Shown one piece after another: positions 39,890 to 45,889 of a stretch of DNA of 64,000 bases (position 1 is the stretch's first letter; every line of letters starts with the position of its first letter). Below the pieces are notes generated by a model. The model was given only the letters and a program-made list of their open reading frames with translations. It was not told the DNA's origin and searched no databases. Origin of the DNA: an uncultured Isosphaeraceae bacterium. GTDB taxonomy: Bacteria > Planctomycetota > Phycisphaerae > Phycisphaerales > SM1A02. A program made the translations under genes and the position numbers. The DNA lies in contig CAZGFN010000004.1 of assembly GCA_964524945.1 (NCBI GenBank), forward strand, positions 5,581 to 69,580. The letters run 5' to 3'.

Positions 39890-40012
39890 TCAGTTACCTG
39901 TCGGCTTGCGCCCGATGGTCAGGTTCGCTTTCGCTTGGAGTTTCCCGGACTCAAACTTGCCGGTGAAGTCGAGGCTCAACTTTGGCGCTGGGCTCATCTG
40001 GAGGGGCGTCAC
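39890..40012 (-). CDS. possible small ORF (3' end of an unassigned minus-strand gene)
   Basis: The frame encoding ...(V)TPLQMSPAPKLSLDFTGKFESGKLQAKANLTIGRKPTGN* has about 80% GC at third positions by hand count, against about 45% for the antisense + frame. The stop lies about 20 nt before the terminator hairpin. Start could be GTG 40012 or ATG 39997. Confidence 0.3.
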   Translation of the reverse strand: MTPLQMSPAPKLSLDFTGKFESGKLQAKANLTIGRKPTGN

Positions 40013-40041
40013 GGCGCGGACTATTCCCAGGGGCGGCGGGG

Positions 40042-40221
40042 TCAGGCTGCTCGCGTGCGAGCGAGGCGAGCCTCGTGGTACTGCTGCCATTCCATGGCCT
40101 CGGCGCGGGAAGAGAATCGCTCGAGGATGATCGGAATGGCACTGCGAGTACAAACGGCCCAATTTTTGCCCAGTTGAAGGAGCATGGTGCTGGTTGTGGG
40201 ATTGGTGGTCGTGCTTGGCAT
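40042..40221 (-). CDS. possible 59-aa ORF downstream of the ATPase
   Basis: Own translation: MPSTTTNPTTSTMLLQLGKNWAVCTRSAIPIILERFSSRAEAMEWQQYHEARLARTRAA*. It looks more protein-like than the overlapping 130-aa track ORF. It is one frame away from the 39890..40012 ORF, so the two could be a single frameshifted gene. Confidence 0.3.
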   Translation of the reverse strand: MPSTTTNPTTSTMLLQLGKNWAVCTRSAIPIILERFSSRAEAMEWQQYHEARLARTRAA

Positions 40222-40376
40222 TGTGGTCTAGTCCTTGCGGGCTGCTTACCGGCAGTCGAATGACACCGGGCTTCAATACCACCTATTGGGACAATGCCCC
40301 TTCTGTGTGAGCACAAGTTTGATTTTTTGGGTTTTTTGGTGTTCGGCGGGGCCCCAGGACGGATGTCAGGGGGACT

Positions 40377-43300
40377 TTATCGGCAGTGCCTGCTCGAGAT
40401 ACGGGCCGCGACCTCGGCCAGCCAGCTCGCATCGGGCATGGCCCAGGGGCGGAATTTTTCCATTGAACCGGTGTCATCCTCGTGGAGGAGCGCCCGATTC
40501 AGGCCCAAGTCGCTCGCGGCGGTCGTGTCGATGAGTTGTCCGGAATCGCTGGCGCTCATTTGGAACAGCAGGCGGTAGGTGAACATGCTTTGTGATTTGC
40601 GATCTAGCCCTCGGAGCATGTTGTTGAGCGAATCGAACCACAACGAGGAATGGATGCCCCAGGCCGGCCCGTCCCGCAGGAGGTCCGCGAAGATCTGTGA
40701 GGTCGGCGGGGGGCCATCGTCATCGCCCATGGACATCATGAAGTCGTCGTCTGAGGGTCGCAGCGGTGCCAACCGATGCGGTTCCAGCCCCAGCAGCAGC
40801 AGGGTCGCCCCGCCGGTGCTTTGGTCACGTTGTCTCGCTGACAGAATGGCGGCAATCTTCTGCAATTCTTCGTCGGCATTGCGGGCGGTGACTCGCACGA
40901 CTTGGTGGGGAAGTTGCTGGGCGAACGCAGCCAATCGGCCGCCAAAGGCCGCGTCGGGTGGCACACCGTCAAGCAGCCACACCATGAGTCCAGATTGGGT
41001 GTGATCGGACGTCGGGGGCAGGATCGCCGCGGATTGCAAGAGGCTGGCGATTTGTACAGATTGGGCAGCCTCGGAGTGCTGACCCACGAGCATGAGATTG
41101 CCTCCAGACTGACGCCGCAGCGGCACCGTGGTGCACTCTTTGATGGCGAGGGGGTCGCCCAAAATGAGATCGAGTTCGGCCGCCTCGGGCCAGTTGTCGC
41201 ATTCGAGCAGCGGCGTGATCGACTCATGGCCGGGCAGGAGGGAGGGGATGTTGCCGCGAAACACGAACTGTCCGAGGCCGTGATCGCCAGCTTTGGCATG
41301 CAGGGTTTTCAGGTACGTGTCCCGCGTGCTGTCGTTGAGCCACGCCACTTGGAATGGGGCGTTGCCGTCGATCTTCCCGCCCGCGTCGTTGTAAATCGCT
41401 TCGCCCGGGCGGCGAAGCTGCCGCGCGGCTGGATTGTCGTCACTAAGAATGAGATATGAGTCGGCTTCATCGCATTGCAGGGCGATGCGTACGCCGATCT
41501 GCCCCATCGTGCTGCGTGCCAGCGAGAAGGCGCCGCCGAGCGTTTGGCTGCCCATGAGCACATGCATGCCAAAGGCACGGCCCTGTCGCACGAGTCGATC
41601 CAGCAGCATGCCGGCTTCTTGCCCAACGGCATCATCGTTGATGAAGAACTCTTGGAATTCATCGACCACCAGCAGAATGCGGGGCATACGCTCGGACTGG
41701 CGTTCACGCCAAGTCCCAATGTCTTGCACGCCTGCGTCGCGGAACATTTGTCCGCGTCGTCGCAACTCCTCATCGAGGCGTCGCAGCACACTGAGACCGA
41801 ATTCGCGGTCGCTCTCGATGGCCACGACTCTGGCGTGGGGCAGTTGATTAGCGGCATAGGTTTGAAATTCAACACCCTTCTTGAAGTCGACGAGGTGGAA
41901 TTCGATTTCATCGGGTGAGTACCACATTGCCAGGTTGGTGATCAAGACGTGCAGCAGTGTTGACTTACCAGAACCGGTGCGACCAGCGATCAGTGCGTGC
42001 TGGGTCGTGCCTGGGCCCAGTACGAAGTCCTGCAAGCGATTGGCCCCACTGGGCCCCAGTTCGATGCGGATTTCATCAGCGGTGCTTCGAGTCCAGATGT
42101 GATCGTCATCTGGGGCGATGTGTTCGAAGGGAACCTCGACGCGGTGCGCCCCTGTGGCGGCTTGGCCGATGCGTCGAACGACGTCGGTGAGTTCGTGATC
42201 CTCGGGCGCTGCGTCGGGTAGGAATTGGAATTGTTCCAGTGGTGGGTCGGTGACGTGCCATGCATTGTCGTCATGGCTGATTCGAAGACATGGGAAGTCC
42301 TCCAGCACGCCCTCTAGGGCGTCTGGTACGGGGGCGTCGCGGTCGTGCAGCACGATGGTCAGGACGCCGCACCGCTGGCCGCTGCTGAGAATCGAAGCCA
42401 AGCGTTTTGCGGAAGATTCGGTTAGGCCCGCGGGGAAGTCTGCCAAGACGACGATGTGGTAGGGCTCGGCGATGGCGCCCGCTTGCTCGTTGTACTCGGC
42501 CAGCGATGCGAATTCATTGCGAAGCAACGATTGAATGACCGTTTCCATGTGTGCTGAGATGCGTTCAAATTGCTGGCTGATATGAGTTGTGTCGGTCCAC
42601 GCTCGCGAGACGACCTGAACATCTTCTAGGTCGGCTAGGTGCATGAATCCTGCGAATGTTTCACCCAGGCCGATGGGATCCACCAGCGTGAGTTGCGTCA
42701 TGCCTGGCGGATTGGAGGTGAGCACTCGCAGGAGCGTCGCTCTGGCCATGTCCATGGCTTCACTGCGGTGGGCGCGGTCGTAGCGAATCAAGAGGCCACC
42801 GCGAGTGTCAAGATCTGCTGCGATAGGGAGATTCGTAACTGGCTCGGGCCCATCCCATGGGTAGTCGTGGGGCACTCGCTGGCCGAATGTTTTTTCATCG
42901 ATTTGAATTTGCCCCACGGCGATGTCGCGGATCCGATCTTTGGAGGACATGCTGGCGAGCAGGTCGGGGCTTGTCCAAGTGGGCCGAGCGGCCTGCCCCC
43001 GATGCGCGATGGCCTCCAACTCATCACGAAGGCGAGGTTGCACTTCATTCCAGCGGGTGTGCAGCGCGGCGATGGCGGCGGCACTCTTTGACTGTGCGCG
43101 TTCCGTGACTGTTTGATAGGCCGCCTGGGCGGAGGCGATTGAGGTTTCGAGGGTCTTGTTGAGGTGTGCTTCCGTGTTGGTATGGGCGGCATGAGCTGCC
43201 TCGGCGGCCTCATCGCGTTCTTGTTGAATCTGATGGCAGTCGTGGTTGTACGCCTCCTCGAGTTGTTCAAGGAGAACTCGAACATCAGGACTGAATCCGT

Positions 43301-45029: not shown

Positions 45030-45076
45030 GGACTCGACGGCTCTGTTGTCGGCTTGTTCTCGCACTCGATTCGAAC

Positions 45077-45349
45077 CTAGCGTTGATTGAGGTAGTCTTC
45101 TGCCCGTTGTGCTTTGCGTACGAGGAAGGGCACGTGGTCCACGACGTGTGTGCGGAAGCGATCGAGGCTTCGCATGGTCTGTTCGAATTCTTCGGTGAAC
45201 TTGCGATGCTCTTGATCGCGCCAGGTCTGACCGAGTTGCGAGTGTCGTGCTTTGAGCACGGTCATCTGTTCGGACATCGTTTCGGTGAACTTCTTGAGTT
45301 CCATCGCGAATCGTCGGACTTCTGCGGGATCGATGACGGCTTTGGCCAT
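45077..45349 (-). CDS. WXG100 (EsxA/ESAT-6)-like 90-aa protein, W-x-D variant
   Basis: MAKAVIDPAEVRRFAMELKKFTETMSEQMTVLKARHSQLGQTWRDQEHRKFTEEFEQTMRSL... Two long helices flank a central W (residue 43). The pattern resembles EsxA ...ANWEGQAFSRFEEQFQQ... as I recall it. Confidence 0.7.
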   Translation of the reverse strand: MAKAVIDPAEVRRFAMELKKFTETMSEQMTVLKARHSQLGQTWRDQEHRKFTEEFEQTMRSLDRFRTHVVDHVPFLVRKAQRAEDYLNQR

Positions 45350-45382
45350 GGCTAGGGTCCTTTCGGTACTTCTTCGTACAGA

Positions 45383-45889
45383 CTACGGTGCATCGGAGCT
45401 TGTGGTTCCGGTTTGGCTTTGGGCATTGCCAAAGAGCCGGTCCCATGAGCCCTCCACGCGGCCCTTGACCATTCCACGAAGGGTGACGTGGCGGCTGCCC
45501 TGAATGACGAGATTGCCCATGATCTGGGCATCGGGGGTCAGGTCGAAATAGCGTCCAAGGAAGTGCACATCGCCTTGGTACTGTCCATGCAAGGTGGCAT
45601 CGCCGCCGAGCATGGCCACTTCGGCGGTGCTGCCGTGAAGCGTGATGGTGCTAGCAAAGAAGAAGGTTGGCTCGGTGATGACTTCGGTTTGGTCGATGGC
45701 CGAAGCATCGACCTGTGTCCATGTGGCAAACCGATGTTGGTAGTTGGCGACCAGTCGATTGACACGAATGAATTCGTATCCCACCAGACCAATGCCAACG
45801 GCTACAACCATGATGATGGTGACGCACCCAATGCGCTGACCGAGCGATCGTGGCGTGTTGGGTTCGGTATCAGGCGGGTTGGTGGTCAT
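45383..45889 (-). CDS. membrane-anchored bactofilin-like (polymer-forming beta-helix) protein
   Basis: ATG at 45889. One TM (CVTIIMVVAVGIGLVGY), then ITLHGSTAEVAMLGGDATLHGQYQGDVHFLGRYFDLTPDAQIMGNLVIQGSRHVTLRGMVKGRVEG, which resembles bactofilin (DUF583) repeats. Confidence 0.65.
   Translation of the reverse strand: MTTNPPDTEPNTPRSLGQRIGCVTIIMVVAVGIGLVGYEFIRVNRLVANYQHRFATWTQVDASAIDQTEVITEPTFFFASTITLHGSTAEVAMLGGDATLHGQYQGDVHFLGRYFDLTPDAQIMGNLVIQGSRHVTLRGMVKGRVEGSWDRLFGNAQSQTGTTSSDAP

What the first reader, a model, noticed from the sequence alone, without database searches (positions are those of the whole stretch)
39890..45889. Type VII secretion-like module (WXG100-like proteins plus a triple FtsK/SpoIIIE ATPase) in what looks like a diderm PVC-type genome
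Co-directional minus-strand genes with tiny gaps or overlaps, in transcription order:
- TM-anchored bactofilin-like protein (45383..45889).
- 90-aa two-helix protein with a central Trp (45077..45349).
- 176-aa coiled-coil protein with an acidic tail (44499..45029).
- 73-aa helical protein joined to it by an ATGA overlap (44281..44502).
- 1288-aa ATPase with a 2-TM hairpin and three FtsK/SpoIIIE-like modules (40377..44243).
- One or two tiny ORFs, then a hairpin/T6 terminator (39828..39868).

Small WXG100-type helical hairpins beside a multi-domain membrane FtsK/SpoIIIE ATPase are the defining signature of ESX/Ess type VII secretion. That system is established mainly in Actinobacteria and Firmicutes.

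I recognise no EssA/EssB/EsaA or EccB/D/E/MycP equivalents here. There is no obvious outer-membrane conduit. The rest of the window looks planctomycete-like. So this is either a minimal, highly divergent T7SS-like exporter or a different, undescribed use of this ATPase plus small-helical-protein pairing.
Basis: partly seen in the sequence, partly recalled or inferred. Interest (0 to 1): 0.8.

Follow-up and report, generated by a model that had tools for sequence, protein, structure and literature searches.

The report
Stand-alone WXG100 / EssC-like ATPase operon
A four-gene operon related to the "Gram-positive" type VII secretion system (two small WXG100-type proteins, a long helical hairpin protein and a membrane-anchored EssC/EccC-like ATPase) is real here and is kept in the same order in many Planctomycetota and Verrucomicrobiota genomes, but this operon type had already been noticed computationally and nobody has shown what it does.

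Summary
The 90-aa protein passes Pfam WXG100. Its best solved relative is H. pylori HP0062. The 73-aa protein is a divergent WXG100 paralogue. The 176/188-aa protein is predicted as one long helical hairpin with an acidic tail. The 1288-aa ATPase has a transmembrane (TM) hairpin and three tandem FtsK-like folds. They superpose best on EccC D1-D3. Only the middle fold keeps Walker A/B.

The order WXG100 -> hairpin -> small WXG-like -> ATPase recurs in about 63 of 67 usable loci. These come from Phycisphaerae, Planctomycetia and Verrucomicrobiota, in unrelated flanks. At least 594 species genomes encode the ATPase. The TM "bactofilin-like" gene, the 170-aa gene and the 59-aa ORF are not part of the module. 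No other conserved neighbour exists, so there is no EccB/D/E, EssA/B or outer-membrane partner.

The operon type has been described before, from sequence only (Anantharaman 2012, cited in Bell 2024; Sutcliffe 2011). A TM-less relative sits inside a CoCoNuT/TerY-P defence locus on a Caballeronia plasmid.

Homology to T7SS parts is solid. Export is inferred, at about 50%. I rate it a new variant of a known kind, of moderate interest.

The parts
45077..45349 (-). WXG100-family protein, 90 aa (HP0062-like, with a W-R-D motif in place of W-x-G). It is the most conserved small component of the module.
   Evidence: Pfam PF06013 scores 32.2 bits, above the cut-off of 27.3. The best PDB match is H. pylori HP0062 (3FX7), E=1.3e-5 over residues 1-88. 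There are 265 clusters of homologues, and almost all listed are exactly 90 aa. Mean pairwise identity across 63 loci is 53%. The C-terminal ...RKAxRIEEYLxQR is nearly invariant.
44499..45065 (-). Long helical-hairpin protein ('mid'). It is 188 aa from GTG 45065, or 176 aa from ATG 45029, and ends in a disordered acidic tail.
   Evidence: The AF2 model shows helices 2-77 and 83-158 and a disordered tail 160-188 (pLDDT 76.7, shallow alignment). There is no Pfam or PDB sequence relative, and Foldseek finds nothing significant. The family is present in 70 of 83 loci. Nine of the 70 family members scanned carry a C-terminal Imm33-like domain, PF24719. The start codon argument rests.
44281..44502 (-). 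Short divergent WXG100-like protein ('s', 73 aa) with a W-x(6)-W-x-D motif. It is translationally coupled to mid.
   Evidence: hhalign of the s family against the WXG90 family gives probability 74.5% and E=2.7e-5, with the W.D motif in register. Twelve of 74 members hit Pfam WXG100 on their own. The family profile matches S. aureus EsxA (2VS0) at E=0.0025. A 4-nt overlap with mid occurs in 32 of 64 loci. The gene stays next to the ATPase even where the other two are missing (L081).
40377..44243 (-). EssC/EccC-like membrane ATPase, 1288 aa. Layout: N-terminal helical region 1-205, TM hairpin about 206-256, helical stalk about 260-440, degenerate P-loop fold about 470-715, active FtsK/SpoIIIE domain about 735-965, degenerate P-loop fold about 1010-1288.
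   Evidence: Pfam FtsK_SpoIIIE scores 109 bits. TIGR03924 EccCa scores 108 bits over residues 469-924, far below its cut-off of 509. There is a single Walker A/B. AF2 of residues 440-1288 gives pLDDT 93.3 and pTM 0.88. The best Foldseek match is T. curvata EccC D1-D3 (4NH0), E=1e-32 over 903 columns. The TM hairpin is present in 73 of 75 full-length relatives. Identity by domain is 17% for the N-terminal region, the TM hairpin and the stalk, then 49%, 72% and 42% for the three folds.
39828..39868 (-). Terminator-like hairpin plus T6, downstream of the operon.
   Evidence: Read directly from the sequence. An overlapping terminator-like site was found by the scan. The number of such sites in the region does not exceed the shuffle expectation, so this is only suggestive.
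40042..40221 (-). 59-aa ORF between the ATPase and the terminator. It is lineage-specific and not part of the conserved core.
   Evidence: It is 60% identical to a 56-aa ORF at the same position in L008. The family was found in only 3 of 83 loci. It has no Pfam hit.
45383..45889 (-). 168-aa TM-anchored protein upstream. It is NOT part of the module. It belongs with the CtaG-like/170-aa genes above it.
   Evidence: It overlaps the 170-aa gene by 20 nt. The family was found in only 4 of 83 loci. It is absent from L012 and from most other loci that carry the module. There is no bactofilin or any other family hit.

Best explanation
This is a stand-alone, membrane-anchored member of the WXG100/EssC-like ATPase operon family, a minimal relative of type VII secretion.

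Proposed mechanism:
- The ATPase forms a ring, as FtsK/EccC-family motors do. A two-helix TM hairpin holds it at the cytoplasmic membrane, and it hangs below the membrane on long helical stalks.
- Only its middle domain hydrolyses ATP. The two degenerate flanking domains serve as scaffold and docking modules.
- The three small proteins are all helical hairpins and are made in fixed stoichiometry from translationally coupled genes. They assemble into an elongated helical bundle. The closest analogies are EsxA/EsxB pairs and the LXG-Lap tripartite complexes of T7SSb.
- The invariant C-terminal tail of the 90-aa WXG100 protein docks on the last ATPase domain.
- The complex is then threaded through a pore lined by the ATPase's own TM helices into the periplasm. 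Alternatively it acts as the adaptor that brings other cargo.

Shown here: homology of the parts, domain architecture, a single active site, the TM hairpin, the conserved four-gene order, and the absence of other conserved partners.

Inferred: ring formation, complex formation among the small proteins, tail docking, the direction of transport, and the fact of transport itself.
For: - WXG100 membership of the 90-aa protein and WXG100-like nature of the 73-aa protein.
- The hairpin fold of mid resembles the elongated helical T7 substrates described in PMC10801868.
- The three-domain cytoplasmic region of the ATPase superposes on EccC D1-D3, on EccC D2-D3 bound to a signal peptide, and on EssC, all ahead of FtsK. 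Sequence profiles agree.
- The TM hairpin, followed by basic residues, is conserved in 73 of 75 relatives although its sequence is only 17% identical.
- The order WXG100 -> mid -> s -> ATPase holds in about 63 of 67 loci from two phyla, in unrelated genomic contexts. A 4-nt mid/s overlap occurs in half of them.
- The 90-aa length is fixed and the C-terminus is nearly invariant.
- No Sec signal or TM segment was found in the small proteins.
- The window places the module among housekeeping genes (SMC, SecDF, RecG, HrpA, cytochrome oxidase), not in a defence island.
- From established knowledge, not tested here: in ESX-5 structures the central pore is lined by EccC TM helices, so an EccC-like ring alone is a conceivable channel.
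Against: - No export has ever been shown for this operon type in any diderm (PMC10765036).
- Close relatives of the same three-domain ATPase clade have no TM segment at all: Caballeronia plasmid, 28% identity over 904 residues, and P0002. They sit inside CoCoNuT/TerY-P/CARF conflict loci, so the clade's core activity need not be membrane translocation. Bell et al. say the same.
- No EccB/D/E, MycP, EssA/B, EsaA or YukD equivalent and no outer-membrane component is linked.
- The canonical YxxxD/E export motif is absent from the WXG100 tail (...EDYLNQR).
- The WXG100 protein is more conserved (53%) than the ATPase as a whole (40%). That fits a structural or regulatory partner at least as well as a secreted product.
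- Some mid proteins carry an Imm33-like domain, a type usually found on cytoplasmic immunity proteins.
- The mid model rests on a 4-sequence alignment.
Confidence: 0.5

Rival explanations
1. This is a non-secretory machine on the cytoplasmic face of the membrane. The EssC-like ring uses ATP to remodel, unfold or release the helical-hairpin proteins, or to act on partners they recruit. It would work as a stress, signalling or conflict module, like its TM-less relatives embedded in CoCoNuT/TerY-P defence loci. In PVC bacteria the TM hairpin would only localise it.
For: - TM-less relatives share the same three-fold architecture (degenerate, active, degenerate), an orthologous WXG100 protein (36% identity) and a coiled-coil protein. 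There the coiled-coil protein is reported fused to a D-ExK nuclease (Bell et al.). Their neighbours are vWA, PP2C, Ser/Thr kinase and a Card1-like CARF nuclease.
- The WXG100 partner is very highly conserved.
- Some mid proteins carry Imm33-like fusions.
- The TM and stalk regions are poorly conserved at 17%.
- There are no accessory channel proteins.
Against: - The TM hairpin is kept in 73 of 75 PVC proteins.
- In PVC genomes the module stands alone among housekeeping genes. No nuclease, vWA, kinase or CARF gene is linked.
- The family tree roughly follows taxonomy, which is unlike typical defence islands.
- All experimentally studied WXG100/EccC pairs are exporters (background knowledge).
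Confidence: 0.33
2. This is an interbacterial-antagonism or anti-phage effector exporter. The mid protein would be a polymorphic effector, LXG-like, with a variable C-terminal domain. The two WXG100-like proteins would be its targeting factors.
For: - The mid protein has a conserved helical N-terminal part and a variable C-terminus: an acidic tail, an Imm33-like domain, or (on the Caballeronia plasmid) a nuclease-like domain.
- The arrangement of two small helical partners plus a longer helical protein mirrors the Lap-Lap-LXG arrangement.
Against: - Most mid proteins, including the one in the window, have no effector domain at all. They carry only a 20-60 aa tail.
- There is no adjacent immunity gene and no polymorphism typical of toxin loci.
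- There is no LXG, Pfam or PDB similarity.
- The one recurrent extra domain is immunity-like, not toxin-like.
Confidence: 0.07
3. This is a DNA translocase of the FtsK/SpoIIIE/TraB type, acting in chromosome segregation, conjugation or DNA uptake.
For: The active domain belongs to Pfam FtsK_SpoIIIE. FtsK motors and the conjugative coupling protein TcpA are significant structural matches, at E about 1e-15 to 1e-13.
Against: - EccC/EssC matches are far stronger and span all three folds.
- NF007615 FtsK gives only 26.7 bits against a cut-off of 1566.
- No gamma (KOPS-binding) domain was found.
- Two of the three folds are degenerate.
- The constant partners are WXG100 proteins, not DNA-processing proteins.
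- In the one planctomycete checked in the literature, Planctopirus limnophila, a separate and essential canonical FtsK exists (PMC10632474).
Confidence: 0.04

Closest known systems
[quoted passage not shown] 2024 (PMC11090510). Example fetched here: Caballeronia sp. SBC2 plasmid pSBC2-5 (L094).
   Same: - The ATPase has three tandem FtsK-like folds of which only the central one is active, plus a long helical N-terminal region.
- The first gene is an HP0062-like WXG100 protein (36% identity, 86 bits to the PVC profile).
- A coiled-coil protein comes next, then a small helical protein just before the ATPase.
- The ATPases align over 904 residues (28% identity, E=1e-84), far better than with any canonical EccC.
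[quoted passage not shown]
   Different: - The PVC ATPase has a conserved TM hairpin between two helical regions. The CoCoNuT-associated ones have none.
- PVC mid proteins lack the nuclease domain reported by Bell et al..
- The PVC operon is not flanked by vWA, PP2C, kinase, CARF or McrBC-like genes. It is chromosomal among housekeeping genes and broadly follows taxonomy.
- The plasmid's 76-aa protein is not detectably related to the PVC 's' family.
Type VII secretion systems: T7SSa/ESX of Actinomycetota (EccC) and T7SSb/Ess of Bacillota (EssC).
   Same: - A membrane FtsK/SpoIIIE-family ATPase with a two-helix anchor and tandem P-loop folds. The best structural matches are EccC (4NH0, 4N1A) and EssC (4LYA, 5FV0).
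- WXG100 helical-hairpin proteins are encoded immediately upstream.
- A longer helical protein flanked by small helical partners recalls the LXG-Lap and PE-PPE complexes.
   Different: - There is one active ATPase site instead of two or three nucleotide-binding domains.
- Scores fall far below the NCBIfam EccC/EssC cut-offs.
- There are no FHA domains.
- No EccB/D/E/MycP or EssA/EssB/EsaA/EsaB genes are linked.
- The hosts are diderm PVC bacteria, and no outer-membrane component is linked.
- The motif is WRD/WxD rather than WxG, and there is no YxxxD/E motif.
- Export is unproven.
Helicobacter pylori HP0062 (PDB 3FX7, 2GTS).
   Same: It is the best solved relative of the 90-aa protein (E=1.3e-5, full length), with the same W-R-D turn motif. 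It is described as an antiparallel helical-hairpin dimer, ESAT-6-like, whose gene clusters with an FtsK/SpoIIIE-domain gene in a Gram-negative bacterium (PMC3397514).
   Different: The H. pylori locus could not be fetched here, so its gene order and the architecture of its ATPase were not compared. Its function is also unknown.

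Membership tests
WXG100 superfamily (Pfam PF06013) | A profile match above the curated cut-off, and a helix-turn-helix protein of about 100 aa with a conserved Trp at the turn. | tested here: met
   The 90-aa protein scores 32.2 bits against a cut-off of 27.3. It aligns full-length to HP0062 and to EsxA/EsxB structures. The turn motif is WRD, not WxG. The 73-aa protein is itself below threshold, but its family links to WXG100.
Type VII secretion, T7SSa (ESX) | An EccC ATPase that scores as an equivalog (TIGR03924/TIGR03925), with three nucleotide-binding domains. | tested here: not met
   TIGR03924 gives 108.5 bits against a cut-off of 509. TIGR03925 gives 76.4 against 346.6. 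There is only one Walker A/B. The overall three-fold architecture does superpose on EccC.
Type VII secretion, T7SSa (ESX) | Linked core membrane components EccB, EccD, EccE and the protease MycP. | tested here: not met
   Apart from the four core genes, no gene family recurs in the flanks of the loci fetched with the ATPase. The only other large cluster consists of antisense shadow ORFs. The rest of each genome could not be searched.
Type VII secretion, T7SSa (ESX) | A YxxxD/E export motif after the second helix of a substrate. | tested here: not met
   The WXG100 C-terminus is ...RKAQRAEDYLNQR (family consensus RIEEYLxQR), with no acidic residue four positions after Tyr. Only a partial match to the general HxxxD/Exxh pattern of PMC3935865 exists (A80-x3-E84-x2-L87).
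Type VII secretion, T7SSb (Ess) | An EssC with N-terminal FHA domains (TIGR03928), plus EssA, EssB, EsaA and EsaB/YukD. | tested here: not met
   TIGR03928 gives 90.7 bits against a cut-off of 778. There is no FHA hit. None of these families occurs in the neighbourhood.
Type VII secretion (any subtype) | ATPase-dependent export of the WXG100 protein. | not testable with these tools
   This needs fractionation or secretome experiments. [quoted passage not shown]
WXG100/EssC-like ATPase operon (Anantharaman 2012; Bell 2024) | An ATPase with three FtsK-like domains, of which only the central one is predicted active. | tested here: met
   There is a single Walker A/B in the middle fold. AF2 gives three tandem P-loop folds at pLDDT 93. 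The model matches EccC D1-D3 over 903 columns. The degenerate motifs are conserved as degenerate in the family consensus.
WXG100/EssC-like ATPase operon (Anantharaman 2012; Bell 2024) | Two WXG100-type proteins and a coiled-coil protein encoded just upstream of the ATPase. | tested here: met
   See for the proteins. The order is conserved in about 63 of 67 loci.
WXG100/EssC-like ATPase operon (Anantharaman 2012; Bell 2024) | Direct sequence relationship to a described example. | tested here: met
   Comparison with the Caballeronia pSBC2-5 locus gives, for the ATPase, E=1e-84 and 28% identity over 904 residues (2e-106 against the family HMM). The WXG100 protein is 36% identical over 87 residues.
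WXG100/EssC-like ATPase operon (Anantharaman 2012; Bell 2024) | A long N-terminal coiled coil (over 200 residues in some described members) and no TM helices. | tested here: inconclusive
   The N-terminal 205 residues and residues 260-440 are charged and helical-looking, and they hit coiled-coil-rich PADLOC models. No coiled-coil predictor or structure model was run on them. A TM hairpin IS present here and in 73 of 75 PVC relatives. This is the main difference from the described form.
FtsK/SpoIIIE DNA translocases | A single motor domain with a C-terminal gamma (KOPS-binding) domain, and an FtsK equivalog score. | tested here: not met
   NF007615 gives 26.7 bits against a cut-off of 1566. There is no Ftsk_gamma hit. 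The protein ends with a degenerate P-loop fold.
Bactofilin (for the 168-aa TM protein) | A match to the bactofilin (DUF583) profile. | tested here: not met
   There is no Pfam or NCBIfam family at E <= 1 and no relevant PDB sequence match. The fold was not modelled.

The most novel reading that the evidence does not exclude
The PVC superphylum carries an ancient, mostly vertically inherited, one-component type VII-like translocon. In this reading an EssC-like ring with a bare TM hairpin is sufficient to move a WXG100/WXG100-like/long-hairpin complex across the cytoplasmic membrane of a diderm cell into the periplasm. This would mean that T7-type export is not a Gram-positive speciality. It would also mean that the accessory Ecc/Ess membrane proteins are later additions, and that the TM-less versions in defence loci are derived, or ancestral, cytoplasmic uses of the same motor.
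Probability: 0.3. Interest if true: 0.85.

Novelty: new variant of a known kind. Interest (0 to 1): 0.55.

Why it matters
Type VII secretion is taught as a system of Actinomycetota and Bacillota. Reviews mention only 'a limited number' of unconfirmed WXG100/FtsK pairs in Gram-negative bacteria.

This work shows a strictly ordered four-gene module in at least 594 species-level genomes. The 80 loci examined come from Planctomycetota and Verrucomicrobiota, apart from one MAG labelled Acidobacteriota. The module has a membrane anchor, and no accessory proteins are linked to it.

If it exports protein, it would be the simplest T7-like translocon known. It would give a handle on how EccC-type motors work without EccB/D/E. 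It would also add a new route into the unusually large periplasm of planctomycetes.

If it does not export, then together with its TM-less relatives in defence loci it would show that WXG100 proteins and EssC-like motors have a non-secretory ancestral function. That would change how WXG100 annotations are read.

Either way, experiments are feasible. The module occurs in the cultured strain Singulisphaera sp. Ch08 and in MAGs assigned to Gemmata, Limnoglobus and Fimbriiglobus.

Tried and rejected
- The word-indexed homologue search with the ATPase found almost nothing outside the same species. This first suggested an orphan. The exhaustive search and the genome scan showed that this was an artefact of the index.
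- A 26-locus 'conserved divergent gene' upstream of the module turned out to be antisense shadow ORFs over the WXG100 and mid genes.
- mid against WXG100 or s by hhalign: no relationship.
- mid family against Pfam: nothing recurrent except Imm33-like in the long forms.
- mid family against PDB sequences: only noise.
- Foldseek of the mid model: only generic long hairpins at E > 0.1 (HP0958, chemoreceptor, PI3K iSH2), not interpreted.
- PADLOC: only the generic ATPase and coiled-coil parts hit (SspH, mad8, HerA, ZorA, LeoBC). No defence system was assigned.
- Phage collection: no WXG100 relative.
A 4-sequence alignment was used instead.
- Essentiality data for Planctopirus limnophila could not be mapped to this operon.
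- Sutcliffe 2011, Unnikrishnan 2017 and Anantharaman 2012 are not held in the library. Their content is cited only through papers that quote them.

Full report
**1. The observation**

- 168 aa, 45383..45889. It has one TM segment at residues 15-44.
- 90 aa, 45077..45349.
- 176 aa, 44499..45029.
- 73 aa, 44281..44502. It is joined to the previous gene by an ATGA overlap.
- 1288 aa, 40377..44243.
- 59 aa, 40042..40221.

A 9-bp hairpin followed by GCAGGC and T6 lies at 39828..39868.

I make two corrections to the anatomy.
- The middle protein probably starts at GTG 45065, which gives 188 aa. This adds 12 residues that match the N-terminus of homologues (MAERADNRAIDS...) and the conserved family N-terminus. 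It leaves only 11 nt after the stop of the 90-aa gene.
- The ATPase has a single Walker A (GRTGSGKS, 754-761) and a single Walker B (ILLVVDE, 856-862).

**2. What the parts are**

The 90-aa protein:
- It passes the Pfam WXG100 gathering score (32.2 against 27.3 bits).
- Its best solved relative is H. pylori HP0062 (3FX7, E=1.3e-5, full length), with the same W-R-D turn. S. aureus EsxA and EsxB structures follow.

The 73-aa protein:
- It has no hit of its own.
- A profile of 74 family members aligns to the WXG90 family with the W.D motif in register (hhalign probability 74.5%, E=2.7e-5).
- Twelve of the 74 members hit Pfam WXG100 individually.
- The family profile finds S. aureus EsxA as its best PDB match (E=0.0025).
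- I conclude it is a shortened, divergent WXG100 paralogue.

The middle protein:
- It has no detectable family.
- AF2 predicts one long antiparallel hairpin (helices 2-77 and 83-158) followed by a disordered acidic tail. The alignment was shallow and the pLDDT is 76.7.
- Foldseek returns nothing significant.

The ATPase:
- It hits FtsK_SpoIIIE, and it hits the EccCa, EssC and EccCb models far better than FtsK. All these scores are well below the curated cut-offs.
- An AF2 model of residues 440-1288 is very confident (pLDDT 93.3, pTM 0.88). It consists of three tandem P-loop folds.
- Foldseek ranks T. curvata EccC D1-D3 first (E=1e-32, 903 aligned columns). Next come EccC D2-D3 bound to a signal peptide, then EssC. 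FtsK motors and TcpA follow only at about 1e-15 to 1e-13.
- The 'triple FtsK/SpoIIIE' description is therefore structurally right, but only the middle fold is catalytic.
- Upstream of the folds lie a charged helical N-terminal region (1-205), a glycine-rich TM hairpin (about 206-256, with the tiny loop PNTP) and a second helical stretch (about 260-440).

The 168-aa TM protein has no bactofilin hit or any other family hit.

**3. Relatives and gene order**

- The 90-aa protein has 265 clusters of homologues. Nearly all listed are exactly 90 aa. Sources name them 'WXG100 family type VII secretion target' from Phycisphaerae/Planctomycetota.
- An exhaustive search with the ATPase returned 150 representatives of 50%-identity clusters. 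All but four are about 1230-1420 aa long, and all score E < 1e-217.
The best 80 come from Phycisphaerae, Planctomycetia (Isosphaeraceae including the complete Singulisphaera sp. Ch08 genome, Gemmataceae, Pirellulales, Planctomycetaceae) and Verrucomicrobiota, plus one MAG labelled Acidobacteriota.
- I searched the six-frame ORFs of these loci with small profiles. The order WXG100 -> mid -> s -> ATPase holds in about 63 of the 67 loci that have enough upstream DNA.
- The flanks are unrelated. For example, in L012 the module sits between an ArsR-type regulator and a tricorn protease.
- Clustering of all neighbouring ORFs found no further recurrent family. The only candidate was antisense shadow ORFs.
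- The 168-aa, 170-aa and 59-aa genes accompany the module only in the three or four closest relatives. They are not part of it.
- The mid and s genes overlap by 4 nt in 32 of 64 loci.
- Exceptions exist. In L081 only s and the ATPase are linked. L078 lacks the WXG100 gene nearby. L039 and L060 have no small genes upstream.
- An NJ tree places the PVC proteins as one clade, far from EccC outgroups. Its subclades broadly follow taxonomy.
- Mean pairwise identity over 63 loci is 53% for WXG90, 30% for mid, 29% for s and 40% for the ATPase. Within the ATPase it is 17% for the N-terminal region, the TM hairpin and the stalk, then 49%, 72% and 42% for the three folds.
- The TM hairpin itself is present in 73 of 75 full-length proteins.
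- Nine of the 70 mid family members scanned carry an Imm33-like domain (PF24719) at the C-terminus.

**4. Prior art**

A tblastn search of plasmids with the 90-aa protein found one hit, Caballeronia sp. SBC2 pSBC2-5. Its locus reads:

vWA - WXG100 (89 aa) - 436-aa coiled-coil protein with a nuclease-like C-terminus - 113 aa - 76 aa - FtsK-like ATPase (927 aa, no TM) - Card1-like CARF nuclease - vWA - PP2C - Ser/Thr kinase - AAA.

- Its ATPase aligns with the window's over 904 residues spanning all three folds (28% identity, E=1e-84). Canonical EccC proteins align only over the active domain.
- This locus is what Bell et al. [quoted passage not shown] They also report two WXG100 proteins, one without WxG, and a coiled coil fused to a D-ExK nuclease.
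- They add that Anantharaman et al. [quoted passage not shown] - HP0062 was likewise described as ESAT-6-like and clustered with an FtsK/SpoIIIE gene (PMC3397514).
- I found no paper that connects WXG100 with any planctomycete or verrucomicrobial genus.

**5. How it most likely works**

The shown facts are:
- a membrane-anchored EssC-like motor with one active site;
- three helical-hairpin proteins produced from tightly coupled genes;
- an invariant 90-aa length and an invariant C-terminal tail on the WXG100 protein;
- no other linked component;
- a housekeeping genomic setting (SMC, SecDF, RecG, HrpA and cytochrome oxidase in the window).

The best-supported model is a minimal T7-like translocon.
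- The ATPase forms a ring.
- The small proteins form an elongated bundle, comparable to EsxAB or to the LXG-Lap tripartite complex (PMC10801868).
- The WXG100 tail docks on the last, degenerate ATPase domain, as the EsxB signal does on EccC D3 (4N1A is among the top structural matches).
- The bundle is then moved through a pore made by the TM hairpins into the periplasm.

All the steps after 'the parts are homologous' are inference.

The main rival is that the motor works on the cytoplasmic side, as it must in its TM-less relatives in defence loci, and that the PVC hairpin only localises it. Three observations fit this at least as well: the unusually high conservation of the WXG100 partner, the Imm33-like fusions, and the weakly conserved TM region. 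I put export at about 0.5, a non-secretory role at about 0.33, an effector-export role at about 0.07 and DNA translocation at about 0.04.

**6. Verdict**

- The T7SS-like reading is supported at the level of homology and architecture.
- Membership in T7SSa or T7SSb fails on several defining features.
- Membership in the computationally described WXG100/EssC-like operon family is met. The notable differences are that the PVC form is membrane-anchored, stand-alone, free of a nuclease domain, and conserved across two phyla.
- It is a new variant of a known kind. It is of moderate interest now and would be of high interest if export by this four-gene set were demonstrated.

Noticed in passing
window 45029-45065 (minus strand): Gene callers start the middle protein at ATG 45029 (176 aa). 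An in-frame GTG at 45065 adds 12 residues that match the conserved N-terminus of homologues, so the true product is probably 188 aa.
   Followed up: yes
window 40042-40221 (minus strand); L008 15224-15394: A 59-aa ORF lies between the ATPase and the terminator. It is 60% identical to an ORF at the same position in a relative whose ATPase is 46% identical. It is absent from almost all other loci and has no family hit.
   Followed up: partly
window 45383-48703 (minus strand): The CtaG-like gene (774 aa), a 170-aa gene (weak YtkA/FixH-like hits) and the 168-aa TM gene overlap one another by 4 and 20 nt. They form their own translationally coupled set just upstream of the module. Only residues 28-268 of the 774-aa protein match CtaG. 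The remaining roughly 500 residues are hydrophobic and contain Cys motifs (for example CTFCMDCVRACP) that look like a polyferredoxin-type membrane domain.
   Followed up: no
window 37552-39384 (minus strand): A 610-aa protein combines a FlgI (flagellar P-ring)-like region with HEAT repeats. It is syntenic with SMC and the module in the closest Phycisphaerae relatives only.
   Followed up: no
L012 10332-11486; L017, L022, L026, L028, L033, L034, L063, L078 (mid genes): A long form of the middle protein (about 350-385 aa) carries a C-terminal Imm33-like domain (PF24719, up to 57 bits) after a low-complexity linker. Most of the loci labelled Tepidisphaerales/Tepidisphaeraceae have the short form.
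   Followed up: partly
L094 (Caballeronia sp. SBC2 plasmid pSBC2-5, NZ_CP049321.1 22989-43249): A TM-less relative of the whole module is embedded between vWA genes, next to a Card1-like CARF nuclease, PP2C, a Ser/Thr kinase and an AAA protein. It matches the published Type III-A CoCoNuT extension.
   Followed up: yes
L091 (MAG labelled Candidatus Acidiferrales): The only non-PVC locus among the best 80 nests inside the Verrucomicrobiota clade of the ATPase tree. This points either to horizontal transfer or to a binning or labelling error.
   Followed up: no
L081 4577-8754; L039; L060; L078: The operon is not always intact. In a MAG assigned to Phycisphaera mikurensis only the s gene and the ATPase are adjacent, preceded by an unrelated 514-aa gene. 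Two loci have no small genes upstream, and one lacks the WXG100 gene.
   Followed up: partly
26 loci, minus strand over the WXG100 and mid genes (e.g. L053 2560-4269): Long antisense ORFs over the conserved WXG100/mid region cluster as if they were a conserved gene family. They are shadow ORFs of a GC-rich conserved region.
   Followed up: yes
JGI contig of P0002 (sample 3300041967, no DNA available): A second TM-less short-form ATPase (891 aa, 29% identity) is preceded by genes of 116, 166 and 106 aa and followed by a 219-aa gene. A JmjC/cupin gene lies nearby on the opposite strand.
   Followed up: no
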